A stretch of 64,000 nt of DNA from Acidimicrobiia bacterium (GCA_965231815.1 OZ246890.1:2833388-2897387); one strand, 5' to 3'. Counted from the stretch's first letter, positions 8,762 through 45,063 are shown. The notes: a model not told the origin generated them from the sequence alone. Numbers and translations are program-made.

Positions 8762-10120
8762 TTATAGCGGCTTCATGATCCATGAGACTAGGTCCGGCCG
8801 AGCCTGGAGCTTCTGGAACCATTCCTTCTCAACCTCGAACACCCGCCAATCGGAATCGGCCGGGACGGTTTCCGCTTCGACCGCGTTCCTGTGCGAGTGG
8901 GCGATCGACAGGTCCATGTTGGTGGGAGAACCATCGGCGAAGTAATGATCCCAGGCGTCCTGGAACCGTACGTAGTCCTCGATGTTGAACAACTCCGCGA
9001 TCAGATCCTCGTCGCTCACCAGTACGCCGCCCGCTCGGCGCACCGCTTCGTGCATTGGCGGGAGCACTTCGTCGGTACGGTTGTGCAGGTAGCGGGTGGT
9101 CCGGTACCAGATGGCCAGCAGACGCAACGCTGTCTCCTCGTTCGCGGCCAACCAGTCCTCGGTGGAAGCGAAAGTGCTGTACCAGAGTCCGGTCGCTCCG
9201 AATGCCTGGAACGGGGCGGCCGACACGAACTTGTCTCTCAGGTCAGGAGCGGTCAGCATCCGGTGCATCTGGATGCTGTCGCCCATGTGGTAGTCACCCT
9301 CCCCGGCGATGAACGAGGTGGAGGCAACGTTGATGTCCGCGAAGCCGATGATCTCAACGTCGTCGAGGGTGAGCCCGCCCTGTTCCAGCAGAGCCTTGAG
9401 GGTCGGAACACTGCCTGGGTCCCAGATTGTGAAGCTCCGTCCGGCGAGGGACGCGGAAAACTCCCGGTTGGCCTCGTCCAGATCACCGCCTGCGTCAACG
9501 AAGAAGTCGAGCCACGGCTTGTGTACCGGCCCGCCGACTTCGGGATCCGCGCGGCCTATCACCTGGAAACCCCTCCATTGGTATGACGTAATCCAGTTCC
9601 GGAACTCTGGAATGCTCTCGTACACACCGAACGCGCAAGCCGGGCAGGAGGCGATCACGTCAAACTCGCCTCGCTTCAGAGCAGCCGTGGGGAAGAAACC
9701 CTGGCTCGAGATGTCAAGTTCGATGTTCAACTCATCGGCTATGCCAAGCTGCTTGGAGGCGGCCCACAGGTTGAATGGATAGAACGGCCCGCCGTTGATC
9801 CGCACCGTGACGAGTGGCGCGTCCGGGATCATCGGCGCCATCTCATCCTCTTCCTCCGGCTCCACGAGCACCTCGCGTACGATCTCTCGGATCACCGTTG
9901 TCGGAGGCGCGGTCGTGGTGGGTCCGGCTGTGGTGGTAGGGGCCGCGGTCGTCGTCGGCGCCAGGGTCGTGGTCGGCGCGGCTGTGGTGGTAGGGGCCGC
10001 GGTCGTCGTCGGCGCCAGGGTCGTGGTCGGCGCTGGCTCGTCTGCCCCACAAGCGGTCGCTACTAGGGCCACCACCGCCATTATAGAAAATAATCTCCAC
10101 CGCTTGAGCGAGCTTCTCAC
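8762..10120 (-). CDS. ABC transporter substrate-binding lipoprotein (NMT1/SsuA/TauA-like) with Thr/Pro-rich linker
   Basis: Lipoprotein signal (VALVATACG), (TTTAAPTTT)n linker, then a type-2 periplasmic binding fold; adjacent to two SsuC-like permeases. Confidence 0.7.
   Translation of the reverse strand: MRSSLKRWRLFSIMAVVALVATACGADEPAPTTTLAPTTTAAPTTTAAPTTTLAPTTTAAPTTTAGPTTTAPPTTVIREIVREVLVEPEEEDEMAPMIPDAPLVTVRINGGPFYPFNLWAASKQLGIADELNIELDISSQGFFPTAALKRGEFDVIASCPACAFGVYESIPEFRNWITSYQWRGFQVIGRADPEVGGPVHKPWLDFFVDAGGDLDEANREFSASLAGRSFTIWDPGSVPTLKALLEQGGLTLDDVEIIGFADINVASTSFIAGEGDYHMGDSIQMHRMLTAPDLRDKFVSAAPFQAFGATGLWYSTFASTEDWLAANEETALRLLAIWYRTTRYLHNRTDEVLPPMHEAVRRAGGVLVSDEDLIAELFNIEDYVRFQDAWDHYFADGSPTNMDLSIAHSHRNAVEAETVPADSDWRVFEVEKEWFQKLQARPDLVSWIMKPL
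9928..10035. repeat. perfect 54-bp tandem duplication (x2) inside the SBP linker-coding region
   Basis: GGCTGTGGTGGTAGGGGCCGCGGTCGTCGTCGGCGCCAGGGTCGTGGTCGGCGC occurs twice head-to-tail, encoding repeated TTTAAPTTT linker units on the minus strand. Confidence 0.8.
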
Positions 10121-14393: not shown

Positions 14394-15323
14394 TTGCCGT
14401 TAAGCACCGTGACACCCGAGAACGACACCTCCGAGAAGTCAGGTCGCGTGGCCGGCCTGGAGCGCCGACGCCATCGGGTAACGCGCTCCCTGCTGGCCTT
14501 GCCGCTGGGGTGGCTGCTACTTTTTTTTGTTATCCCGGTATCGCTGGTGGTGGCTTACAGCGTCGGGATTCTGGCGACCTTCACCAAGGAGGAGGGGGTC
14601 AGCTTGGAGAGCTGGCGGCTCTTCCTGTCCGGGGAAAACGTCTACATGCTGCTGTTCCTCAAGTCATTCCGGATGGCGTTGATCGTGGCCGTGGTGGTGG
14701 TGATCGCCGCCTACCCCATCTCCTACTTCCTGGCGATGATCGCCGACAAATACAAGTACTCGTTGCTGCTATTGATGATCGCTCCGTTCATGACCAACTT
14801 CTTCATGCGGGTGATGGCCTGGAAGGTGTTGCTCGGCAAGCAGGGGGTGATCAACTCCTTCCTGGTTTGGTCGGGTCTCCGCGAAGTGGGGAATCCCATC
14901 GAGAGCCTTGCCTTCGGCGAAGTCCCGGTGATGATAGTGTTGGGATACGTCTGGATTCCCTTTGTGATGCTCCCTATGTTCGCAGCCATGATCAGTATGG
15001 ACCGCCGGCTGCTGGAGGCGGCCGCCGACCTAGGGGCGAGCCGATGGCGGGCTTTCTGGAAGGTGACCTTCCCGCTCAGCCTCCCCGGAGTGGTGGCGTC
15101 CTTCTTCTTCGTCTTCATCCCGACCATCGGGGAGTTCGTGGTGCCCAAGCTCGTTGGTGGGACTAGGGGTTACATGTTCGGGAGCGCCATCGACGACCTG
15201 TTCGGAATGGGCCTCGACTGGCGCACCGGCTCCGTACTTTCCCTTTGGCTGGTTATGGCCGTGTTCGTACTGGCTCTGGTATTCATGCGGTTGGTACGCT
15301 TCGGCAGGTTGGCAGAGTCATGA
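14394..15323 (+). CDS. ABC transporter permease (PotB-like)
   Basis: 6 TM helices and an EAA motif region (EAAADLGASRWRAFWKVTFP). Confidence 0.8.
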   Translation: MPLSTVTPENDTSEKSGRVAGLERRRHRVTRSLLALPLGWLLLFFVIPVSLVVAYSVGILATFTKEEGVSLESWRLFLSGENVYMLLFLKSFRMALIVAVVVVIAAYPISYFLAMIADKYKYSLLLLMIAPFMTNFFMRVMAWKVLLGKQGVINSFLVWSGLREVGNPIESLAFGEVPVMIVLGYVWIPFVMLPMFAAMISMDRRLLEAAADLGASRWRAFWKVTFPLSLPGVVASFFFVFIPTIGEFVVPKLVGGTRGYMFGSAIDDLFGMGLDWRTGSVLSLWLVMAVFVLALVFMRLVRFGRLAES

Positions 15324-16201
15324 TCGACATCGCCACCTCCCGGTGGGCCAAACGAGCCCTGATAGCGGTATTTATCTTCGAGATAATCTTCCTCTACGCC
15401 CCCATCACCATGCTCTACATTTTCTCATTCAACGAGGGCACGGTGGTGGGGTTCCCGTTCGCCGGTTTCACCTTGGACTGGTACAGGGAGGCCCTTACCA
15501 ACCGAGGTCTCCTGCTTTCTATGAGAACCAGCGCAACGATCGCCCTCATGTCTAGTACTGCATCGATAGTGGTCGGCCTCTTGATGGCCATCCCTCTGGC
15601 CCGGCGCAAGTTCAAGGCAAAGGCGCCGATCATGGCGCTGGTGCTCAGTCCTCTCGTGGTACCCCATCTCGTGTTCGGGGTTGCGTTGCTGATCACCTTC
15701 AGGAGCGTTGAGGTTCTGACCAACGGAGCTTTCGAGTTCCCCTTATCACTTCCTTCCGTAGCGATTGGCCACGTCGTGGTTTTGATGCCGCTTATAGTCT
15801 TGATCCTGATACCCCGTCTACAACGAATCGATGCTCACCTCGAGGAGGCGGCCGAGGACTTGGGCGCCAGCGGGTGGCGAACCTTCCGGAGCGTGATCCT
15901 TCCACTGATCGCGCCGGCTCTGATGGCGGCATACGTGATCTCGTTCATCATCTCGTTCAACGAGTTCGCGGTGGCGGTATTCGTGAGCGGACCTACCACC
16001 ACCTTCCCGATCTACGTGCTGGCCCAACTCCAGTATCCGGTGGACGTGCCCCAGGTCATCGCTATCTCGGTCATCGTCGTAACCATCTCCCTGCTGGTGG
16101 TGGTGGGCGCCGAGGTGCTACGGCGAGTGTTCGAGCGGCGGTACCGGGTACTGAACCAGACCGCCGGACTGCTCGGCGTGGCCGACGCCGATACGGAGTG
16201 A
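15320..16201 (+). CDS. ABC transporter permease (PotC-like)
   Basis: Start set at the ATG overlapping the upstream stop (ATGA). EAA motif (EEAAEDLGASGWRTFRSVILP). Confidence 0.8.
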   Translation: MIDIATSRWAKRALIAVFIFEIIFLYAPITMLYIFSFNEGTVVGFPFAGFTLDWYREALTNRGLLLSMRTSATIALMSSTASIVVGLLMAIPLARRKFKAKAPIMALVLSPLVVPHLVFGVALLITFRSVEVLTNGAFEFPLSLPSVAIGHVVVLMPLIVLILIPRLQRIDAHLEEAAEDLGASGWRTFRSVILPLIAPALMAAYVISFIISFNEFAVAVFVSGPTTTFPIYVLAQLQYPVDVPQVIAISVIVVTISLLVVVGAEVLRRVFERRYRVLNQTAGLLGVADADTE

Positions 16202-16232
16202 GCATGAGCGTCCGCCGGGAACGGAAAGCGTA

Positions 16233-17990
16233 ATGTCGGATCGGGCATCTTTGCTCCAGCCCTACTCCCGGAAGACTCACGCTTGGGCGGGTGTCGATCT
16301 CGAACGCAACGTCGAGATGCAGACCAGGGACGGAGTGACGTTGAGAAGCGACATCTACCGACCGCTCGGTGACGGCCCGTGGCCGGTCCTGCTCCACCGA
16401 ACACCCTACGGTAAGGACTTCGTCCACGACGGTCACTACTTACACCCCGGCTGGTACGTACGGAGTAGCTTCGTTGTGGTGGTACAGGACGTGAGGGGCA
16501 GGTTCGGATCGGATGGCGCTTTCACTCCCTATCTCAACGAGGCGTCCGACGGATACGACACGGTGGAATGGGCGGCCGGTTTGGAGGGTTCCAACGGCCG
16601 GGTGGGAATGTACGGGGCGAGCTATCCAGGGATGGTCCAGTATCTGGCGGCGGTCGAAAGCCCTCCGAGCCTCGGAGCGATCTCTCCCACCGTTGCCGCT
16701 GCCGACCTGTACAGCCATTGGACCTACGAGGGGGGCGCCCTGCGCATGTTCGTCCCCCACTGGACGGCTGCCCTTCTTATGGAAATCGGCATGCGGCGTG
16801 GCCAGCCCGATCTGACCGCCCGCGGTAGGGCTATCAGGTCAGTGCCTTCGCAGGCGGGTGCATGGCTGGGCTCGGCGGCACCGGTGGAGTTGGATCCGCT
16901 CGAGCACGCCGACTTCTACAGGGAGTGGCTGGAGCATCCCACCAATGACGCTTTCTGGAAGGAACGCAGCGCTCTCCACCGCATGGACTCGGTGCAGTGC
17001 GCGGTTCTCCACATCGGGGCCTGGTTCGACACCTTCCTCGAAGGCGCCCTAGCGGCCTACCGGGAGTTGGCTTCCCGACCGGACGGCCCTGAGCAATGGC
17101 TGATCATCGGTCCGTGGGGACACCTCCCGGGCGGTGAGCGTATAGGAGACCTGATTCTCGGACCTCAGGCCAGAGGTACTGTGAATCTCGACCAGGTTCA
17201 GGTCGACTTCTTCCACCGCCATCTCGGTGCGAGCACTTCGGCAAGCGACGAGAGTCGGGTCCGCTACTACGTGTTGTTCGAGAACCGCTGGCGTGACACC
17301 CCGACATGGCCGCCTTCCGGGACAGAAACCACTCTCTATCTCCGTTCGGATGGAACCGCCAACACAGTGGGCGGTGACGGCCGGCTCGATCAGCTACCTC
17401 CGGAGGCGCCGGAACCGGCTGACCTGTATCACTACGTTCCCCGCATCCCGGTGGCGGCAGCCGGTGGACACACCTGCTGTGACGAGAACGCCATGCCGGC
17501 CGGACCGCGCAGCCAGCACTTCCTGGAGAGGCTGCCCGAAATACTTGTCTACTCGACCGAGCCTTTCGCCGAAGAGGTCACTATCGCCGGTCCGGTCACG
17601 GCCCGGTTGTGGACCGCTACCGAAGCGGTCTCGGCCGACTACGTAACCCGCCTCTGCATGGTCCGCAACGGCAGGTCGCTGAACATCAGCGACGGGATAA
17701 GGCGGATGCCCGCCGAGGACCTTGCTCAGGCGCGGGACGGGGATGGTGTAGCTCAGGTTGAGATTCGGATGCAGTCCACCGCCGCGCTGATCCGCCCCGG
17801 CGACCGGTTGCGTCTTCATGTCACCAGCGGCGCCTTCCCGGCTTTCGACATCAACCCGCAGACCGGGGCCCTGCCCGCCACGACCCCGACCTGGGACGGG
17901 ATGGCTGCCATGCACGGTGTCTGCCACGAGCCGGGACGGGAGTCATCGCTAATCTTCACACTGACCAAGGAGAGGGATCATGACGGCTAG
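16233..17990 (+). CDS. CocE/NonD family alpha/beta hydrolase (S15 X-Pro dipeptidyl-peptidase-like)
   Basis: N-terminal LHRTPYGKD signature and GASYPG nucleophile elbow. The large C-terminal beta-sandwich domain is typical of CocE/NonD. Confidence 0.75.
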   Translation: MSDRASLLQPYSRKTHAWAGVDLERNVEMQTRDGVTLRSDIYRPLGDGPWPVLLHRTPYGKDFVHDGHYLHPGWYVRSSFVVVVQDVRGRFGSDGAFTPYLNEASDGYDTVEWAAGLEGSNGRVGMYGASYPGMVQYLAAVESPPSLGAISPTVAAADLYSHWTYEGGALRMFVPHWTAALLMEIGMRRGQPDLTARGRAIRSVPSQAGAWLGSAAPVELDPLEHADFYREWLEHPTNDAFWKERSALHRMDSVQCAVLHIGAWFDTFLEGALAAYRELASRPDGPEQWLIIGPWGHLPGGERIGDLILGPQARGTVNLDQVQVDFFHRHLGASTSASDESRVRYYVLFENRWRDTPTWPPSGTETTLYLRSDGTANTVGGDGRLDQLPPEAPEPADLYHYVPRIPVAAAGGHTCCDENAMPAGPRSQHFLERLPEILVYSTEPFAEEVTIAGPVTARLWTATEAVSADYVTRLCMVRNGRSLNISDGIRRMPAEDLAQARDGDGVAQVEIRMQSTAALIRPGDRLRLHVTSGAFPAFDINPQTGALPATTPTWDGMAAMHGVCHEPGRESSLIFTLTKERDHDG

Positions 17991-38254: not shown

Positions 38255-38584
38255 TCAGGTAAGGTAGAATACCCCTTCATCGCTCCTACCGAAAGCGAGT
38301 AGCTGCTCGTAAGCCCTACGCAAAGCGGATTCGATCATTTCCGTTGGCGCATTTCTGATTCGGACGCTAATCAGCTTAGGTGGCCACCCGCGCTGTTCGC
38401 TCAGATCGATATAGTCCCTGTCCTTGCTGGTAACGATGTAGTCATAATGCTTGGCGTATTCCCAGACCGACCGATCATCTGTGCTTTTACGCCCAATGTC
38501 AAAGACGTGAGTGGATCCAGGGTATATATCTGCCAGCATGCCAGGCAACTTGTCGGAGAGCATCTCGTCGAACAGCAGTTTCAC
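38255..38584 (-). CDS. DUF5615 family PIN-like putative toxin
   Basis: VKLLFDEMLSDKL matches the DUF5615 N-terminus (MRFLLDENLS). GTG start forms a GTGA overlap with the upstream DUF433 stop; an alternative ATG start lies at 38638. Confidence 0.6.
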   Translation of the reverse strand: MKLLFDEMLSDKLPGMLADIYPGSTHVFDIGRKSTDDRSVWEYAKHYDYIVTSKDRDYIDLSEQRGWPPKLISVRIRNAPTEMIESALRRAYEQLLAFGRSDEGVFYLT

Positions 38585-38832
38585 GGGTTCGGGGGTCTCC
38601 TGGGAACCATTTGCTCGTCTGTTACGTAGTCGTAGCACGCGAGTAGGTCCTCTTCGGTCAAACGGGGGAACTCATCAAGCAATTCCCCGTGTGTCATGCC
38701 GCCAGCCAGGTACTCGAACACATCGAACACTGTGATGCGCGTGTCGCGGATGCAGGGCTTGCCGAACCTGCGATCCGGGTCGATGGTGATGATGTCAGCG
38801 TGCTTCACTACTTTATACATGCCCAGTCCCAT
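38581..38832 (-). CDS. DUF433 family putative antitoxin
   Basis: 83 aa. DPDRRFGKPCIRDTRITVFDVFEY is typical of DUF433, which is usually paired with DUF5615. Confidence 0.6.
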   Translation of the reverse strand: MGLGMYKVVKHADIITIDPDRRFGKPCIRDTRITVFDVFEYLAGGMTHGELLDEFPRLTEEDLLACYDYVTDEQMVPRRPPNP

Positions 38833-39284: not shown

Positions 39285-42200
39285 TCAGCCGGCGGGGTGT
39301 GGGTCGTCTGGGGGCAGGGAGGGGGGCAACCCGTCGACGGTGCGGACGGTGCGGACGGACACGGTGATCAGCCTGCATAGGTGTTCGATCAGGTTGTAGG
39401 GCTGGTTTGCCCAGGTGTGCCACCGGTTCGGGTCGCGGGTGATCCCGCTCGTTTTGTCATGGGTAGCCCGTAGACGGTCGATGGCCCAGCCGAGCGGGGT
39501 TTTCCCGTTGATCACATACTCGTGCGCTTCCGGGGGGATGTTTTCGATTCGGCACCGGTCGTTGACCACGAGCACGCTCAGGTCGTTGGTGAGTTTCTTG
39601 TCTTCGCCGCGGGTTCTGGCCCACCGTATCGGCTTGTGGATACGGTACACGTCGGGGCTGTCACGGTCCGGGTCGGCCGCCTGCCCGTCTACCAGCACTC
39701 GCACATGCGGATACGGTTCGCAGATTTCGTAGCCGACGTGTAGGTCGATCAGCTCCCGGCCCGCCTGGGCGAACGGCCAGAAGTCGTCGGTGTAGGGGAT
39801 ACGGGGTAGACCTTTGCGTAGATCGTTCGCGTATCTGGTTCGCCAGTCGGGGGCGTGCATCACTCCGTATATGTATGCCCAGATGTGGTCTTTGGTGATG
39901 GCAGGGTCCTGGTAGCGGCTGCGGAACTGGTTGAGGCACCAGTCGGTGATGTTGTCCACCCGGCCTTGGTCGTCGGGCCGGTCGCCGGTGGGGTCTAGGT
40001 CCCCCAAGTCCAGCATCGGAGTAGTGCCGGCGTTCATCGGCTGGTCTCCTTCGGATACGTGTACCGGGGGAACGCTTGTCCGTTGCCCATGAATTGGATG
40101 TCCGGAGGGATGTCGCTTATCAACGTCGAGAAGGGGCCTTTCCAGCCTGGTCCGGTCATGCTGATCACCTGATTCATCCGGTCGGGTGGGTGTATCGGGG
40201 GAACGCTTGTCCGCCTGACAGCAGATGCAGGTCCGGGGGACAGTCGCTGACGAGTGTTGAGAACCCGACCGATGCTCCCGGCCCGGTGATGTAGATGACC
40301 TGGTCGGTCGGTCGGTCGGTCGGTCGGTCGGTCGGTCGGTCGGTCGGTCGGTCGGTCGGATTATGATAGGAGGTTCTTGGCATCACCTGACCTTTGGACA
40401 CCAGCTCCAGGTCCGGTGCTGTGTCCGTCACCACCGTCGAGAACTCACGGGTCGATCCCCTCCCCGCTACGACTATCGCCTGGTTAGCGCCGTCGGGACG
40501 GTGAGGGAACATGAGCGGGACACGGTAGACCCGAGTGATGAACAGCGGGTCGTAGTAGAGCCACATCTTGGTGAACGGTCGGTAGTGGACTTCCCGAATG
40601 TTCCGTTCGTCGTAGGTGGCGGGCAGGCCGCGTCGTAGCGGTCGTCGCAGGTCACCCGTCCATTTGATGACATGTGGTCTGACGTTTCGGGTGGCTTGTT
40701 CGACTGTCGCCTCCCCGGTGCTCACACGGTGTCGTTGGTGTTCGTATTCGTCGACCATTGCTTCGGCCCGTTCTTCCAGACCGTCCTTGTCGTAGTCGTA
40801 CATATATGGGTCGCGACCGGTCGCGAGGCCGAGCGAGTAGATGTGGAACACGGTCGGGGAGTCAGCGCCCGATCCGGCCGACCCGCGCAGGGCTGCCTGT
40901 TTGGTGGTCTTGTCCCCGAGTGGCATTAGGTGTTGCCAGGTGGGGTCGGATTGGTTGATCCAGTCGTGGTTGCTGTCGGGTTTGATCCGTTGCCAGCCTT
41001 CCCCGTCGCCGCTCGTCGGCGCATGCCCCATGTCTTGGAGGGCCTGTTTTTCTGCTCTGCGGTCAGGTAGTCGCCAACATCGTGGTACCAGATGCGGGAT
41101 TGGCCGTCGGGATGTGGCTGCTGGGGGTGTTTGATCAGTACGGATACGAGTATGCCCACCCTCGTGCTGCTGCCGAAGACGTTGCCCTTTTCCCGCCTCC
41201 TGGCTTCTCCGGAGAGGCGGGCGTCGCCGCGTAGGTTGAGTAGGTACAGGCTGTGGTATTCGTCGGCTAGGCAGGCGCGCATGCCTGATTCGGCGTTGCC
41301 GTCGAGGTAGCCGTTGGGTGTGACGAAAGCGACGATGCCTTGGTCGCCGATGCGGTCGGTCGCCCACCTGATCGCCAGCTTGTACAGGTCCATCAGTTGC
41401 CTGCGGTTCTGGGTCTTGCTTTTCGCTGCGTAGGTGTCGCGGATGCGTTCCCGCAGTTGTGGGTAGACGATGTTGGGGTTGTCCTCAGCAGCGGATCTCT
41501 GTCCTGCGGACCAGGGCGGGTTCCCGACTATGATGTCGATGCGTTGGCCGGCTTGTTGTTCGGCCCGTCGGCTGTTGCCTGACAGGGTGTCGAACTGTTG
41601 CTGGTCGGGTTGGCTGTAGAACGTATCGCAGAGGACGATGCCTGCGAATGGCTTGTAGTCGCTATGTGGTAGTCGTTGGCGCCGTCCTTCTTCGATTTTG
41701 ACGGCGGCGATCTAGTAGGCCAACAGCAGCATTTCGTTGGCGTATATCTCGGCTGTGTATTTGCGGTCCAGGTCTTCGCCTGTGATAAGCGGCCGGCCGT
41801 TGCTGTCGTTGATGGTGAGTAGCCGGTTGATGAAGGTGCCGGTTCCGGTGAACGGGTCCAACACATGAACGTCGGGGTCTGATAGGGCCTTGCCGAAGTG
41901 GTGCTGGGAGAGCCGGTCGGCTGATCGGAGAACATAGTCCACCACCTTGATGGGGGTGTAGGCGACGCCGAGCCGGTCGGTTTCCCGTTTCATGCCTTTC
42001 GCGAAGAACGATTCGTACAGTTCGAGCAGGATTTTGAGGCGGCCTTCGGGGTCGGTGACCTGGCGGACCCGTTCGGTCACGCTGTCGTATAGGCGGTCGA
42101 GGCGGGCGGTGTCGGCTCGGATGTGGTCCCGGTCCAGCGTGTCCACCATCTGGTTCAACGCAGCAACAACCGGGTTGAGGGAAGCGAACGCGGCGGAGCC

Positions 42201-44588
42201 GAACAGGGCGTTGAACACGGGCAGCGTGACTATGTGGCAGGCCAACATGTCGACGAGGTCGGCTTCTTGTAGGTGTTCGTTGATCGTCTGACGCATCTCT
42301 GTGAGGAACCGTCCGAACGCTTCCGCAGTGTGCGGACGGGATCTGATGAGTCGGCTGATGCGGGCTGCGACGGTTCGGGTGACTTCTCCTACGTCGTCCC
42401 CCCAAGTCGCCCAATACGTGCGGTCCCCGCAGATTTCGACCAGCGCCGACGCGATTTCGGAGTTCATGGGGAGGGTCATCTGCGCAACGGTGGCAGGGTC
42501 CAACTCCCCACCGTTATCCGTGCCGTCGTCGTCGCCGTCGTCGCCGTCGTCGGTGCCGCCTATGACGTTTATGGGTGGTTTGCCGCCTTTGTCGGCGGTG
42601 TTGACCCACGCGTTCATCCGTTCGTCGTGGGATCGTAACGCCCGGATCACGTCCCAGACTGGCTTGAACCTTGGGCTGCGCAGAACGGCGTCGTCGATAC
42701 GGGTTTTCCCTTCGGGCAGGATGACGGGCAGGATGATGTAACCGCGTTCTTTCCCCGCGGCGGTTCGCATGACCCGTCCGACGGCCTGGACGATGTCGAC
42801 GATCGATCTGCGGGGGGCTAGGAACAGCACCGCGTCGAGGGCGGGCACGTCGACGCCTTCGGACAGGCAGCGGGCATTGGACACGACCCGGCACCGGCCG
42901 TCGGGGATGTCGGATTGAAGGTCGGCGATGGCGGTGGCCCGTTCCGACGCCCGTGTGGTTCCGTCCACATGGGTCACGTCCAACCCCAGCCGGCCGTTGT
43001 CGGCGCCGGAGGGTCGCTGTTCCGTGTATCCGTCGATGACGGGTTCCCACAGGCGGGAGAGCTGCCGCGACGCTTTGATGGTGTTCTGGAACGCTATAGC
43101 CCGTTTCACGGCACGGCCGGGGTTCGGGTTGGTCTGGCCGGTGCGCCGACCGTGGCCGGGTCCGCGGGAGAGCGGGTCGGCCATCGCGTCCCAGCAGCCC
43201 AGCATGGCCACCACATCGTCCGCTCGGATTTCTTCTCCGTGGTCCAGCTGGAGGGTGTTGACAACGTTGTCGGCCAGGTCGCCGTAAAGGCCCCGGTCGA
43301 CTGCGACTATCGCTACCTGATAGTCCGACAGCCATCCCCCATCGACTGCGGCCTTGAATGACATCTCATAGAACACGTCCCCGAACACGTTCGGGTCGTC
43401 CATCGAGAACACTGCGATGTCCTTCGAGCGGGCATTCCGTCTGGCCTGTGGGGTGTACAGGCGGGGCGTGGCGGTCATGTACAGACGGCGGTGTGCCCGT
43501 ATCTTCTGGTTGTCATGCACGAGGGTGAACGGGCTGACACCTTTCGTGGCGGTTTCGACTCCGGTGGTGCGGTGCGCTTCGTCACATACGACCAGATCGA
43601 ACACCGCTCCGGACTGCTGCTGCGCCGTGGCGACCCGGTCGAGTGACTGATATGTGGAGAACACCACCGTGGTCGCCCCGCCGCGGGTGGGGTTAGTGAG
43701 GGCTTGGGCTATATCTTCGGGGTCGGTAGTGACCGGAATCGACAGCTCAGTCAAATCCGACGACTCCGCGCCGCCCCGTTTCCCCGCGGTCCGATCCGAG
43801 CAGACACCCACATATGTTTGGACGGTGCGCCGCTGCGCCGCCCATTCCCGCATCGTCTGCCCCAGCAGCGAAATGGACGGGACCACATACAACACCGTCC
43901 CATCTGCGGGGACGGTCTGTTCGGCGATCCAAAGCGTCACCACGGATTTGCCTGTCCCACAAGGAAGGATCATCTGTCCCCTGCCGGCGCCAGCGTCGAA
44001 ACCGGCCACCACCGCGTCTATGGCGTCCTGCTGGTAGGGGTGCGGTTCGTACAGCACCCCCGGGATCGGGGCACGGTCGGGATCAGCAGCAAGTTCGGTC
44101 CAGGGAACCGGCCACTGCGCCAGATCCCCGTGATACAGCACACGGCATCCCGCCCCCTTCAGCTTCTTCGCCCCGGCCCGGGTAACCGGCGGAGAAGCCC
44201 GCGACGTCGAAATGAACATGCGATGCTGGAACCGGGCTGTGTTCGCTTTCGCCAAATACGAGTCCACATCCGCTTCCGGTGCGCGGGCGTCCCGATAGCA
44301 TTTCGTCTGGATCGCCCACCGGTCCCCGTCAGTGTCTGTCGCTATCAGGTCGATGCCCGAATCGGGACCGTCCCGTCCTTCCCACTCCCCCCAGGGAACC
44401 ACCTGGGTGAACCGGCCGCGGAACTCGCCCGGATGCTCTAGCAGCACCCGACACATCAACCGCTCGAACCTTCCGCCCACCCCACGCTGCGACGACGCCG
44501 ACCGCCGTATCGTCTCCAACGCCGCGTCCAGACCCGACAACGGTGGGACCAGCCGTTTCGACAGCCGCACCGCACCCATGTCACTCAT
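39285..44588 (-). pseudogene. disrupted Type ISP-like restriction-modification gene (Mrr-like nuclease - SF2 helicase/translocase - gamma-class N6A methyltransferase - C-terminal TRD)
   Basis: Nuclease motif (GIDLIA...WAIQTKCY) and helicase motifs (GTGKS; VVCDEAHRTTG). MTase motif I (VLDPFTGTGTF) lies before an in-frame TAG at 41709-41711, and motif IV (IIVGNPPWSAG) lies after it. There is a frameshift at a T5/A5 run near 41046-41050. A (GGTC)14 tract lies at 40302-40357. Three degenerate ~114-nt coding repeats follow (FSTxVxDxxPDLxLxSxGQxxPRY), with 1-nt frameshifts near 40180 and 40050. The C-terminal fragment (YIYGVMHAPDWRTRYANDLRKGLPRIPY) is typical of Type IIG/ISP enzymes. Confidence 0.7.
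40302..40357. repeat. (GGTC)14 tetranucleotide simple-sequence repeat inside the R-M coding region
   Basis: 14 uninterrupted GGTC units, read as (PTDR)n on the minus strand. Unit gain or loss changes the downstream reading frame. Confidence 0.85.
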
Positions 44589-44649
44589 CGTCGGTCGCTC
44601 CCCTCTGTTCGGCTAGCTTGGTCGGGTTGTTACCCACAGCGATCTGTAT

Positions 44650-45063
44650 CTGCCCCTGCACACCAGCGACGCCCGGCGATATCAACAGTTACCATCCCCA
44701 GCCAGGACCAGGTACCGTACTCGGCGCCCGGACGCTCGCAGAGCATTCGAGGGACGACCCCGAACGCTACACCAGCGCCAAGTCTCGCAGAAACTACGCC
44801 GGAACGTCGCCCATCACAGTCGCATCAGGCCGCAAACACGCCGTGGTCGCCCGCCACGTCCGCAACCGGAGACTCCACAACGCCCTCGACCAATAGGCGT
44901 TCTGTTCCCTAAACAACAGCCCAGACACCCGAACCTTCCTACGACCAAAACGAGCAGCCGACAACCTCCACCACCAAACACTACGAGCCCTCGCCAACCG
45001 ACTCGTAGGAACCCTCCACGGCTGCCTCAAACACCAAACCCCCTACAACGAACACACCGCCTA
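44650..45063 (+). pseudogene. IS110-family transposase C-terminal remnant with internal stop
   Basis: ...PGPGTVLGARTLAEHSRDDPERYTSAKSRRNYAGTSPITVASGRKHAVVARHVRNRRLHNALDQ*AFCSLNNSPDTRTFLRPKRAADNLHHQTLRALANRLVGTLHGCLK matches the conserved IS110 C-terminal region. The N-terminal DEDD half is absent. Confidence 0.5.

What the first reader, a model, noticed from the sequence alone, without database searches (positions are those of the whole stretch)
39285..44588. Type ISP-like single-polypeptide R-M gene caught in multi-hit decay
One minus-strand reading frame encodes, in order, an Mrr-like nuclease, an SF2 helicase-like motor (DEAH), a gamma-class N6A MTase (motif I DPFTGTGTF, motif IV NPPW) and a Type IIG/ISP-style C-terminal TRD. 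It is interrupted by four lesions. The first is an in-frame TAG at 41709-41711, lying between MTase motifs I and IV. The second is a 1-nt frameshift at a T5 run (~41046-41050). The third is a 1-nt shift in a C-rich run near 40180. The fourth is a further shift near 40050, where the last fragment restarts at an ATGA overlap. Flanking genes in the window (2.7-kb acnA, ftsK) are intact, so clustered sequencing error is unlikely. Together with the frameshifted orphan MTase, the IS110 and the CoxL remnants, this indicates relaxed selection on this island.
Basis: partly seen in the sequence, partly recalled or inferred. Interest (0 to 1): 0.7.

Follow-up and report, generated by a model that had tools for sequence, protein, structure and literature searches.

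The report
Repeat-switched recognition cassettes in restriction gene
What looked like a decaying restriction-modification gene is a two-gene Type ISP system in which three alternative copies of the DNA-reading loop sit in different reading frames behind a slippery (GACC)14 repeat; this design is conserved in sponge-symbiont bacteria and probably switches the enzyme's target sequence, although this particular copy also carries two real knock-out mutations.

Summary
Two of the four reported lesions are genuine and unique to this genome: TAC→TAG at 41709-41711, and A6→A5 at 41046-41050.

The other two "frameshifts", at about 40175 and 40035, are conserved stop/start (ATGA) junctions.
- A perfect (GACC)14.5 repeat lies at 40302-40359.
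- It is flanked by three tandem 42-aa cassettes in different frames, each under purifying selection in its own frame.
- A separately initiated 250-aa ORF follows, encoding the rest of the target-recognition domain.

The cassette aligns to the LlaGI β-hairpin plus Loop VI, which reads target bases. The residue equivalent to H1368 is E, H or Q in cassettes 1, 2 and 3.

In relatives from sponge-symbiont metagenomes:
- 27 of 28 loci carry a non-triplet repeat at a multi-frame cassette array, against 1 of 56 canonical ISP loci.
- Changing repeat length alone reaches 90 of 92 cassettes.
- The read-through paths are almost stop-free (3 stops observed, 81 expected).
- Near-identical alleles differ by indels only at the repeats.

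Best reading: a repeat-driven reading-frame switch of R-M specificity, recently inactivated here. I found no description of it in the searched literature.

The parts
41712..44588 (-). Large ORF, first part: Mrr-family nuclease, SF2 helicase-like motor (DEAH), ISP coupler, MTase motif I (DPFTGTGTF); 958 codons, ending at the amber codon
41709..41711 (-). Amber codon TAG. Genuine lesion: TAC (Tyr, LLAYYIAAVKIEEG) in both L001 and L002
41049..41708 (-). Continuation in the same frame: rest of the gamma-class N6-adenine MTase, including NPPW
   Evidence: Eco57I 8e-9
41046..41050 (-). Homopolymer (T5 on + strand, A5 on coding strand) that has lost one base relative to L001 (A6) and L002. Genuine -1 frameshift or homopolymer sequencing error
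40486..41049 (-). N-terminal part of the target-recognition domain (Type_ISP_C profile about 2-111), read in the frame set by the 1-nt deletion
40360..40485 (-). Cassette 1 (NQAIVVAGRGSTREFSTVVTDTAPDLELVSKGQVMPRTSYHN), upstream of the repeat. Corresponds to LlaGI hairpin 1347-1358 plus Loop VI 1365-1374; H1368-equivalent is Glu
40302..40359 (-). Perfect tetranucleotide repeat, (GACC)14.5 on the coding strand. Stop-free in all three frames (PTDR/DRPT/TDRP); 21.8 units in L002; replaced by (CAGC)30.8 in L014
40174..40301 (-). Cassette 2 (..VIYITGPGASVGFSTLVSDCPPDLHLLSGGQAFPRYTHPTG*). In frame with cassette 1 at the present repeat length; H1368-equivalent is His; ends at TGA 40174-40176, overlapping the ATG of cassette 3
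40034..40177 (-). Cassette 3 (MNQVISMTGPGWKGPFSTLISDIPPDIQFMGNGQAFPRYTYPKETSR*) in the -1 frame. H1368-equivalent is Gln; ends at TGA 40034-40036, overlapping the ATG of the small ORF
40046..40051 (-). Shine-Dalgarno-like AAGGAG, 8 nt upstream of the small-ORF ATG, embedded in the last codons of cassette 3
39285..40037 (-). Small ORF (250 aa): end of the TRD core plus the 'guide' subdomain (LlaGI about 1386-1570). Conserved as a separate gene in the clade

Best explanation
The locus is a split, repeat-controlled Type ISP restriction-modification system.

Components:
- A large ORF encodes the nuclease, motor, methyltransferase and the first half of the target-recognition domain (TRD).
- A small, separately initiated ORF encodes the rest of the TRD.
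- The 3' end of the large ORF is an array of alternative 42-aa cassettes. Each encodes the beta-hairpin plus Loop VI that reads target bases in LlaGI. They lie in successive -1 reading frames behind a hypermutable non-triplet repeat, here (GACC)14.5.

Proposed mechanism: slipped-strand changes in repeat length decide which frame is read, and therefore which cassette ends the large subunit. In this window:
- The present length gives cassette 1 plus cassette 2, then a stop.
- One more unit gives cassette 1 plus cassette 3, then a stop.
- Two more units give cassette 1 alone, fused through an unconstrained linker to the small ORF.

The inferred consequence is a heritable, reversible switch of the DNA sequence that the enzyme methylates and restricts, at the base pair read by the H1368-equivalent residue (Glu, His or Gln).

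In this genome the system also carries an amber codon and a 1-nt deletion upstream in the MTase/TRD region. It is therefore probably switched off permanently and recently, unless these are assembly errors.

Shown here: the anatomy, its conservation, selection in each frame, repeat-length polymorphism, and homology to Loop VI. Inferred: the change of specificity, assembly of the two subunits, and in-population reversibility.
For: Anatomy:
- Perfect (GGTC)14.5 at 40302-40359, the only such repeat in 64 kb.
- Three cassettes matching Type_ISP_C 112-157, and a small ORF matching 163-339.

Selection:
- Window vs L001: cassette 2 own-frame omega 0.065, against 1.4 and 5.8 in the other frames. Cassette 3: 0.068, against 0.84 and undefined (0 syn, 9 non).
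- Ten independent cassette pairs: own-frame omega 0.15, against 2.0 and 3.1.
- The loop residues are invariant within a cassette type across loci.

Structural mapping:
- Cassettes align to 5ffj_A 1180-1218, which is LlaGI 1344-1382. His of cassette 2, Gln of cassette 3 and Glu of cassette 1 align with H1368.
- Loop VI 1365-1374 and H1368/G1372/Q1373 read target position +3 (PMC4872093).

Split gene:
- The best 120 homologues of the small ORF are stand-alone proteins of 182-412 aa.
- In L009, L010 and L012 the small ORF lies upstream of the large ORF, with a stop/start overlap in L009 and a gap of a few nt in L010 and L012.
- The AF2 model of the small ORF (pLDDT 88.9) matches only LlaBIII, LlaGI and DrdV C-terminal TRD parts.

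Generality:
- 27 of 28 clade loci have a non-triplet repeat at a cassette array, and all but two (L012; L018, a partial cassette at a contig end) carry at least two cassettes. More than 10 different repeat motifs occur.
- Only 1 of 56 canonical ISP loci has a repeat there, and each has a single in-frame cassette.

Reachability:
- Repeat-length changes alone make 90 of 92 cassettes in 29 arrays the terminal in-frame cassette.
- The paths leading to them contain 3 stops in 2884 codons, against 80.8 expected (P about 7e-31).

Polymorphism:
- Window 14.5 units against 21.8 in L002, at 95% identity.
- Six of seven near-identical sister-locus alleles were aligned (≥99.75% identical over 5.2 kb). Their only indels are in C9/C10 and in (CT)9-12; the seventh carries C9 and (CT)12.
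- L031/L033 and L027/L029 sit in different cassette states, and the only frame-changing indel inside the large ORF is at the repeat.

Window-specific lesions.
Against: - No read-level, methylome, proteomic or biochemical data exist. The specificity change is inferred only from homology to LlaGI Loop VI.
- In window-type arrays cassette 1 is always translated upstream of the repeat. Two states therefore give a subunit with two cassettes, and it is not known which one enters the fold.
- Many natural alleles are off or mutated: the window, L001 (in-frame TGA), L094-L100 (poly-C out of frame), and both L009 arrays. The system may be costly or often dispensable.
- The cassette dN/dS set was selected by peptide similarity, which biases own-frame omega downward. 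The window-vs-L001 test, defined by coordinates, is free of this bias.
- The loci are phylogenetically related, so the P-values overstate independence.
- Fused single-polypeptide relatives exist (P0152, P0153, P0161).
Confidence: 0.75

Rival explanations
1. Plain pseudogene. This is a formerly single-polypeptide Type ISP gene degraded by four independent random lesions, and the repeat and duplications are by-products of decay.
For: The TAG and the 1-nt deletion are absent from L001 and L002. On the window branch the small ORF has 0 synonymous and 5 nonsynonymous changes, against 7 and 0 on the L002 branch. An IS110-family fragment lies upstream, and synteny breaks 90 nt before the start codon.
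Against: The two downstream 'lesions' and the triplication are shared with loci 77-94% identical. They are under purifying selection in their own frames. Repeats accompany such arrays in 27 of 28 clade loci but in only 1 of 56 canonical loci. Whole-gene omega is 0.25-0.35.
Confidence: 0.05
2. Silent-cassette recombination. The out-of-frame cassettes are never translated in place. They are donors that are moved into the expressed position by homologous recombination or gene conversion, and the repeat is only an ON/OFF switch.
For: L002 carries a cassette 2/3 hybrid produced by a 131-nt deletion between the two cassettes, so recombination between cassettes does occur. Donor cassettes would also be conserved in their own frames.
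Against: Recombination does not require cassettes to lie in successive -1 frames, each closed by a stop. Nor does it require the paths from repeat to cassette to be stop-free (3 stops against 81 expected), or 90 of 92 cassettes to be reachable by tract-length change alone. Near-identical alleles differ at the repeats, not by cassette rearrangement.
Confidence: 0.1
3. Co-expression by slippage. RNA-polymerase or ribosome slippage on the long repeat produces all frames in every cell. Each cell would then carry a mixture of enzyme isoforms, rather than the population switching heritably.
For: Long homopolymers (G10-C23 in many loci) are classical sites of transcriptional slippage (general knowledge). 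Frameshift suppression at phase-variable repeats has been reported for a Type III mod gene (bioRxiv 10.64898/2026.04.01.715767).
Against: DNA-level tract-length differences between near-identical alleles are observed directly. Slippage on tetranucleotide and octanucleotide repeats at the RNA level is not established. The two mechanisms are not exclusive.
Confidence: 0.1
4. The switch is real but controls something other than target sequence. The alternative C-terminal cassettes would tune docking of the small subunit, activity level, or the balance of restriction against methylation.
For: The cassette is the last element before the break between the two polypeptides. In window-type arrays cassette 1 is always present, which could keep specificity constant.
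Against: Differences between cassette types concentrate in the omega-loop tip and Loop VI, including the H1368-equivalent residue. These positions are invariant within a type, while scaffold positions drift. In L013- and L031-type arrays there is no constitutive cassette, so each phase supplies the only Loop VI.
Confidence: 0.15

Closest known systems
Type ISP restriction-modification enzymes LlaGI / LlaBIII (PDB 5FFJ, 4XQK)
   Same: Same domain order: Mrr nuclease, SF2 motor, coupler, gamma-class N6A MTase, TRD. Same Pfam families. MTase+TRD matches 5ffj_A at E 2e-96. The fold of the small ORF matches their C-terminal TRD.
   Different: The TRD is split between two ORFs just after the PRFTY strand, at about LlaGI 1385/1386. 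The hairpin/Loop VI element is present in 2-10 alternative copies in different frames. A hypermutable repeat sits at the array. None of these features occurs in 56 canonical ISP loci examined.
Repeat-mediated phase-variable R-M genes (Type III mod phasevarions; Type I hsdM/hsdS with repeats, e.g. PMC5909438, PMC7383803)
   Same: A long perfect non-triplet repeat lies inside the coding region of an R-M gene. Tract-length polymorphism occurs between near-identical alleles, and frame changes alter the product.
   Different: Those switches are described as ON/OFF or as truncation. Here the alternative frames each lead to a different homologous, selected functional cassette. In some loci several repeats form a hierarchy reaching 6 cassettes.
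Specificity-switching Type I systems with duplicated hsdS genes (shufflons; PMC7394358)
   Same: Several alternative recognition-determining sequences are kept at one locus, and random switching between them is inferred to change methylation and restriction specificity.
   Different: Those switch by recombination between inverted repeats, usually with a recombinase. Here I recognised no inverted-repeat or recombinase system, and switching is by reading-frame choice after repeat slippage. The swapped unit is one 42-aa loop element, not a whole TRD.
C-terminal phase variation proposed for Helicobacter canadensis (PMC2823697)
   Same: A repeat near the 3' end changes the C-terminal sequence without abolishing expression.
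   Different: There the alternative tails are a few unrelated residues with no evidence of function. Here they are homologous, selected cassettes of a known DNA-reading element, combined with a split-gene arrangement that makes every frame usable.

Membership tests
Type ISP R-M enzymes | N-terminal Mrr-family (PD-(D/E)xK) nuclease | tested here: met
   Pfam Mrr_cat_2 5e-18, Mrr_cat 2e-6
Type ISP R-M enzymes | SF2 helicase-like ATPase (DEAH) followed by the ISP coupler domain | tested here: met
   ResIII 2e-21, Helicase_C 5e-10, ISP_coupler 3e-35; VVCDEAH in the translation
Type ISP R-M enzymes | gamma-class N6-adenine MTase (motif I then NPPW) | tested here: met
   DPFTGTGTF and NPPW are present, and Eco57I matches at 8e-9. 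In this genome an amber codon lies between the two motifs.
Type ISP R-M enzymes | C-terminal TRD of the Type_ISP_C kind | tested here: met
   PF18135 matches at 2e-43 (profile 2-157), 4e-6 (112-157) and 6e-51 (163-339) in three pieces. It aligns to LlaGI and LlaBIII.
Type ISP R-M enzymes | All functions in a single polypeptide | tested here: not met
   The last 250 aa are a separate ORF with its own ATG and Shine-Dalgarno sequence. The best 120 homologues are stand-alone. In L009, L010 and L012 the small ORF is upstream of the large one. A fused form arises in only one repeat phase.
Type ISP R-M enzymes | ATP-driven translocation and cleavage on collision of enzymes from head-to-head sites | not testable with these tools
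   Biochemical property.
Repeat-mediated phase-variable (contingency) loci | Long uninterrupted repeat, unit length not a multiple of 3, within the reading frame | tested here: met
   (GGTC)14.5, 100% matches, at 40302-40359.
Repeat-mediated phase-variable (contingency) loci | Tract length differs between otherwise near-identical alleles | tested here: met
   14.5 against 21.8 units in L002. In the sister locus the only indels in 5244 nt are C9/C10 and (CT)9-12.
Repeat-mediated phase-variable (contingency) loci | High-frequency reversible switching within a clonal population | not testable with these tools
   Needs reads or cultures. Six short-read contigs end exactly at the repeat, which is consistent but not proof.
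Specificity-switching R-M systems (shufflon type) | Alternative recognition modules exchanged by site-specific inversion (inverted repeats plus recombinase) | tested here: not met
   No long, high-identity inverted repeats flank the cassettes. No recombinase family matched among the neighbouring ORFs scanned; the nearest mobile-element trace is an IS110-family transposase fragment.
Specificity-switching R-M systems (shufflon type) | Different states methylate different DNA motifs | not testable with these tools
   Inferred only from E/H/Q at the LlaGI H1368-equivalent position.
Pseudogene | Disabling mutations absent from close relatives | tested here: met
   TAC→TAG and A6→A5 are unique to the window.
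Pseudogene | Loss of purifying selection along the gene | tested here: inconclusive
   Omega is 0.25-0.35 overall. The window branch has 29 syn/31 non against 30/23 for L002. Only the small ORF hints at relaxation (0/5 against 7/0).

The most novel reading that the evidence does not exclude
Sponge-symbiont bacteria (Acidimicrobiia and other lineages sharing that habitat) have evolved 'reading-frame multiplexing'. One or several hypermutable repeats act as a decision tree that routes translation into one of 3 to 6 or more alternative, overlapping-frame cassettes encoding the base-reading loop of a Type ISP enzyme. The rest of the recognition domain has been moved to a separate subunit so that every frame yields a working enzyme. 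This would be a heritable, recombinase-free, multi-state switch of restriction and methylation specificity, and a general new way for bacteria to encode protein variants.
Probability: 0.55. Interest if true: 0.9.

Novelty: new variant of a known kind. Interest (0 to 1): 0.85.

Why it matters
Phase-variable R-M systems are known to diversify phage defence and to act as epigenetic switches. Known mechanisms are repeat-driven ON/OFF switching and recombinase-driven shuffling of whole specificity genes.

This locus and about 30 relatives point to a third mechanism. Repeat slippage would choose among alternative recognition-loop cassettes stored in the three reading frames, and a split recognition domain would make all frames productive.

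If confirmed, it would:
- provide a natural set of Loop VI variants on a common scaffold for understanding and engineering Type ISP/IIG specificity;
- explain why such genes look 'frameshifted' and get annotated as pseudogenes in MAGs;
- add a population-level defence strategy to the biology of sponge symbionts, which face very high viral exposure.

It also warns that frameshifts next to simple repeats in R-M genes should not be scored as decay.

Tried and rejected
1. All four interruptions as random lesions: rejected for the two downstream ones.
2. Assembly artefact for the triplication and repeat: rejected, because the same layout occurs in independent assemblies from different projects.
3. 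Inverted repeats or a recombinase that could drive a shufflon: nothing convincing.
4. Exact-sequence look-up of the window's small ORF to find its source contig: not on record.
5. Literature searches for repeat-controlled or multi-cassette Type ISP enzymes, or for phase variation in sponge symbionts: no relevant paper.
6. The first narrow cassette HMM gave weak hits in distant arrays. This was solved by iterating the model.
7. I considered modelling the large-subunit C-terminus with the small subunit, to see which cassette is used. I did not attempt it, because the tool folds one chain and accepts only unmodified window or database sequences.
8. I considered programmed ribosomal frameshifting at the ATGA junctions. 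I dropped it because DNA-level repeat polymorphism explains the states and I recognised no slippery heptamer.

Full report
OBSERVATION

The minus strand between 44588 and 39285 encodes, in order:
- an Mrr-family nuclease;
- an SF2 helicase-like motor with DEAH;
- the ISP coupler;
- a gamma-class N6-adenine methyltransferase (DPFTGTGTF ... NPPW);
- a Type_ISP_C recognition domain.

These come from Pfam Mrr_cat_2 5e-18, ResIII 2e-21, Helicase_C 5e-10, ISP_coupler 3e-35, Eco57I 8e-9, and Type_ISP_C 2e-43 / 4e-6 / 6e-51. The last of these is at an ATGA overlap.

A perfect tetranucleotide repeat, (GGTC)14.5 on the + strand (GACC on the coding strand), lies at 40302-40359. It is the only repeat of its kind in the 64-kb window.

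The 42-aa segment matching Type_ISP_C profile positions 112-157 is present three times in tandem:
- Cassette 1 (40360-40485) lies before the repeat.
- Cassette 2 (40177-40301) lies after it in the same frame. It ends at a TGA that overlaps the ATG of cassette 3.
- Cassette 3 (40034-40177) is in the -1 frame. It ends at a TGA that overlaps the ATG of the last 250-aa ORF (39285-40037), which is again in the -1 frame.

An AAGGAG lies 8 nt upstream of that last ATG. There is none before the ATG of cassette 3.

RELATIVES

A scan of representative genomes found three related loci in Acidimicrobiia MAGs.
- L002 is 95% identical at the DNA level and has an uninterrupted 1730-aa ORF.
- Against L002 the window differs by TAC→TAG, a 1-nt deletion, 7 fewer GACC units, 131 extra nt and an in-frame 9-nt indel. 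L002 carries a cassette 2/3 hybrid, which is a deletion between cassettes and accounts for the 131 nt.
- The 'intact' ORF of L002 reads cassette 1 in frame, then (PTDR)n, then cassette 2 out of frame as a linker, then the last domain.
- L001 (about 77% aa identity) has all three cassettes in the same frame arrangement with the same ATGA junctions. Its repeat at the same place is (GCAGAGGG)3.5, and it has one in-frame TGA.
- L014 (94% identical in the small ORF) has (CAGC)30.8 there.
- Both L001 and L002 have TAC and the extra A at the two upstream sites, so those two lesions are derived in the window.

SELECTION

Between the window and L001, 11.5 of 14 substitutions in cassette 2 and 7 of 9 in cassette 3 are synonymous in the cassette's own frame (omega 0.065 and 0.068). 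In the other two frames omega is 0.84 or more or undefined, including the 'through' frame that gives the long ORF of L002. Ten independent cassette pairs from other loci give 0.15, against 2.0 and 3.1. The cassettes are therefore translated in their own frames and are not relics.

Whole-gene omega is 0.25-0.35. With L001 as outgroup, the window branch shows no overall excess of nonsynonymous change (29 syn/31 non, against 30/23). The small ORF shows a hint of relaxation (0/5 against 7/0). Any inactivation is recent.

THE LAST ORF IS A SEPARATE GENE

The best 120 homologues of the 250-aa ORF are all stand-alone PF18135-only proteins of 182-412 aa. Those that carry a source name come from MAGs labelled Acidimicrobiaceae, Ca. 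Spongiisocius, Dadabacteria or simply 'bacterium'.

In context:
- The small ORF follows the large ORF in L006, L007 and L013.
- It precedes the large ORF, overlapping its start (TAATG) in L009 and separated by 4-6 nt in L010 and L012.
- L009 holds three tandem large+small sets.

An AF2 model of the small ORF (pLDDT 88.9) matches only the C-terminal TRD of LlaBIII, LlaGI and DrdV.

A search of 50%-identity representatives shows that fused forms also exist:
- P0152 is a canonical single-cassette fusion.
- P0153 looks like a 'fused phase' with a read-through linker.
- P0161 has a poly-Gly stretch inside Loop VI.

WHAT THE CASSETTE IS

The MTase+TRD region aligns to LlaGI (5ffj_A, E 2e-96), DrdV and LlaBIII. 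The cassette aligns to chain residues 1180-1218. With the 164-residue offset of the nuclease-deletion construct, these are LlaGI 1344-1382. The offset is confirmed because chain H1204, G1208 and Q1209 fall on H1368, G1372 and Q1373.

Kulkarni et al. 2016 (PMC4872093) describe:
- a beta-hairpin/omega loop at 1347-1358 that supports Loop VI;
- Loop VI at 1365-1374 as a base-specific recognition element;
- H1368 (N1360 in LlaBIII) reading the purine at target position +3;
- G1372 and Q1373 reading the opposite base.

The H1368-equivalent is Glu in cassette 1, His in cassette 2 and Gln in cassette 3. Across loci the omega-loop tip and Loop VI are invariant within a cassette type and are the main difference between types. 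Scaffold positions drift.

The small ORF's N-terminus, MNAGTTP, aligns with LlaGI GMFAGRTD directly after PRFTYETD. The split is therefore at about residue 1385/1386.

GENERALITY AND CONTROLS

A metagenome scan with an alignment of small ORFs returned 80 further loci. An iterated cassette HMM and a repeat scan separate two groups.

Canonical ISP loci (34-43% identity; 56 with a cassette detected):
- Each has exactly one cassette; where checked it is in frame with the downstream domain.
- None has an adjacent repeat, apart from one A8 in AT-rich DNA.

Clade loci (≥50% identity):
- They have 2-10 tandem cassettes in different frames, usually successive -1 frames with overlapping ends, each closed by a stop.
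- 27 of 28 have a long non-triplet repeat at the head of the array or inside it.
- The repeats include (CCGA)n, (CAGC)n, (GCAGAGGG)n, (TC)20, (AG)18-21, (GA)27, (CA)19, (CT)20, (CGAA)12, (GTCA)8(GACA)10, and poly-G or poly-C of 8-23.
- Six short-read contigs end exactly at the repeat.

In L013 and L031 there is no cassette upstream of the repeat. Each of the three phases then ends the large ORF with a different single cassette, or with none in one phase of L013. In L010 and L009 three poly-G tracts, each preceded by a TAA that closes the previous cassette, form a hierarchy that reaches six cassettes.

Simulating tract-length changes alone makes 90 of 92 cassettes in 29 arrays the terminal in-frame cassette. 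The read-through paths from repeat to cassette contain 3 stops in 2884 codons. From the off-frame stop density of the same genes, 80.8 are expected (Poisson P about 7e-31; relatedness of loci inflates this).

DIRECT EVIDENCE OF TRACT-LENGTH VARIATION

Seven assemblies of one sister locus from different samples were recovered, and six were aligned over 5244 nt. These are ≥99.75% identical, and their only indels lie in a poly-C tract (C9 or C10) and a (CT)9/10/11/12 tract between cassettes 1 and 2. L031/L033 (95% identical) and L027/L029 (93%) sit in different cassette states. The only frame-changing indel inside the large ORF is at the repeat.

INTERPRETATION FOR THE WINDOW

At the present repeat length the frame coming from the TRD N-half reads cassette 1, (PTDR)~5 and cassette 2, then stops. 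One more GACC unit would lead to cassette 3. Two more would give cassette 1 alone, fused to the small ORF.

In this genome the amber codon and the 1-nt deletion upstream would prevent translation from reaching the array. On the sequence as given, the system is inactive. This is either a recent loss or, for the homopolymer at least, a possible sequencing error.

The locus lies in a small variable patch:
- A DUF433/DUF5615 pair lies downstream.
- An IS110-family fragment lies upstream.
- Synteny with L002 breaks 90 nt upstream of the start codon.
- Housekeeping genes flank it: ftsK, an E2 acyltransferase, NUDIX and KAS.

COMPARISON WITH KNOWN SYSTEMS AND NOVELTY

The parts are familiar: Type ISP domains, repeat-mediated phase variation of R-M genes, and specificity switching in Type I systems. 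The combination is not. Here reading-frame choice after repeat slippage selects among homologous, selected recognition-loop cassettes, and a split TRD makes every frame usable.

Full-text searches found nothing describing this. The nearest ideas are:
- 'C-terminal phase variation' (PMC2823697);
- repeat- or inversion-driven Type I and Type III phasevarions;
- frameshift suppression at mod repeats.

It fails the 'single polypeptide' criterion of Type ISP, and it lacks the inverted repeats and recombinase of shufflons.

LIMITS

- No reads, methylomes, proteomics or biochemistry were available.
- The specificity change and the subunit assembly are inferences.
- It is unknown which cassette is used when two are present.
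- It is unknown how cells avoid self-restriction after a switch.

Noticed in passing
window 42522-42560: A GC-rich 9/12-nt tandem repeat encodes an acidic Gly/Asp linker (GGTDDGDDGDDDGTDNG) between the helicase and the coupler. It differs by in-frame indels from L002 (9 nt) and L001 (6 nt).
   Followed up: partly
window 44543-44896 (+) and 44678: An IS110-family Transposase_20 fragment overlaps the 5' end and upstream region of the ISP gene. Homology with L002 stops 90 nt upstream of the ISP start codon, so the promoter region may have been rearranged in one of the two genomes.
   Followed up: partly
window 38255-38832 (-): An overlapping DUF433/DUF5615 gene pair (toxin-antitoxin-like) lies immediately downstream of the small ORF. 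A DUF433-like gene also lies near the ISP locus in L010.
   Followed up: no
L003 11497-11508; L009 2472-2484 and 9283-9293; L010 9300-9310; L094-L100 poly-C at about 5270: Second homopolymer tracts occur inside the large ORF, far from the cassette array. In L003 the G12 tract sits exactly at the frame break. In L094-L100 the tract is C9 or C10, both out of frame (C8 or C11 would be in frame). These look like separate ON/OFF switches layered on the cassette switch.
   Followed up: partly
L012 6980-6989; L027 6953-6961; L029 3093-3103: Poly-G or poly-C tracts lie just upstream of the small ORF as called; in L012 the tract reads in frame with it. The small subunit may also be phase-variable where it is the first gene.
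   Followed up: no
L003 14700-16460: About 1.7 kb lies between the cassette array and the small ORF. It holds 20-23-nt tandem repeats and a 444-aa ORF (15007-16341) with a Walker-A-like motif (GQRGSGKT).
   Followed up: no
L009 1829-14690: Three Type ISP large ORFs lie in tandem. Two of them are immediately preceded by a small TRD-C ORF, and two arrays of 4 and 6 cassettes are present. Both arrays are currently in a phase that ends without a cassette.
   Followed up: partly
L008 2437-7690: In a Ca. Spongiisocius genome the small ORF and the large ISP ORF are divergently oriented. An ISL3 transposase lies nearby. A poly-C15 tract on the coding strand heads three cassettes.
   Followed up: no
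L001 10513-10515: An in-frame TGA replaces the Trp of the conserved FTKMWLYY motif. This is another independently inactivated allele of the same system.
   Followed up: partly
L006 about 1730-1745: Relative to the window, a 1-nt change at the C-run in 'TTCCCCCG' at the end of cassette 2 shifts cassette 2 into the frame that runs on into the small ORF. In L006 the fused phase therefore carries cassette 2.
   Followed up: partly
P0161: A 1773-aa fused relative has a run of six glycines (probably a poly-G tract) inside Loop VI itself (HDLNLHRGGGGGGAFPKF), followed by an apparent read-through linker.
   Followed up: no
window 9896-10059: An imperfect 54-nt-period tandem repeat (also scored at periods 18 and 36) lies in GC-rich sequence elsewhere in the window.
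   Followed up: no
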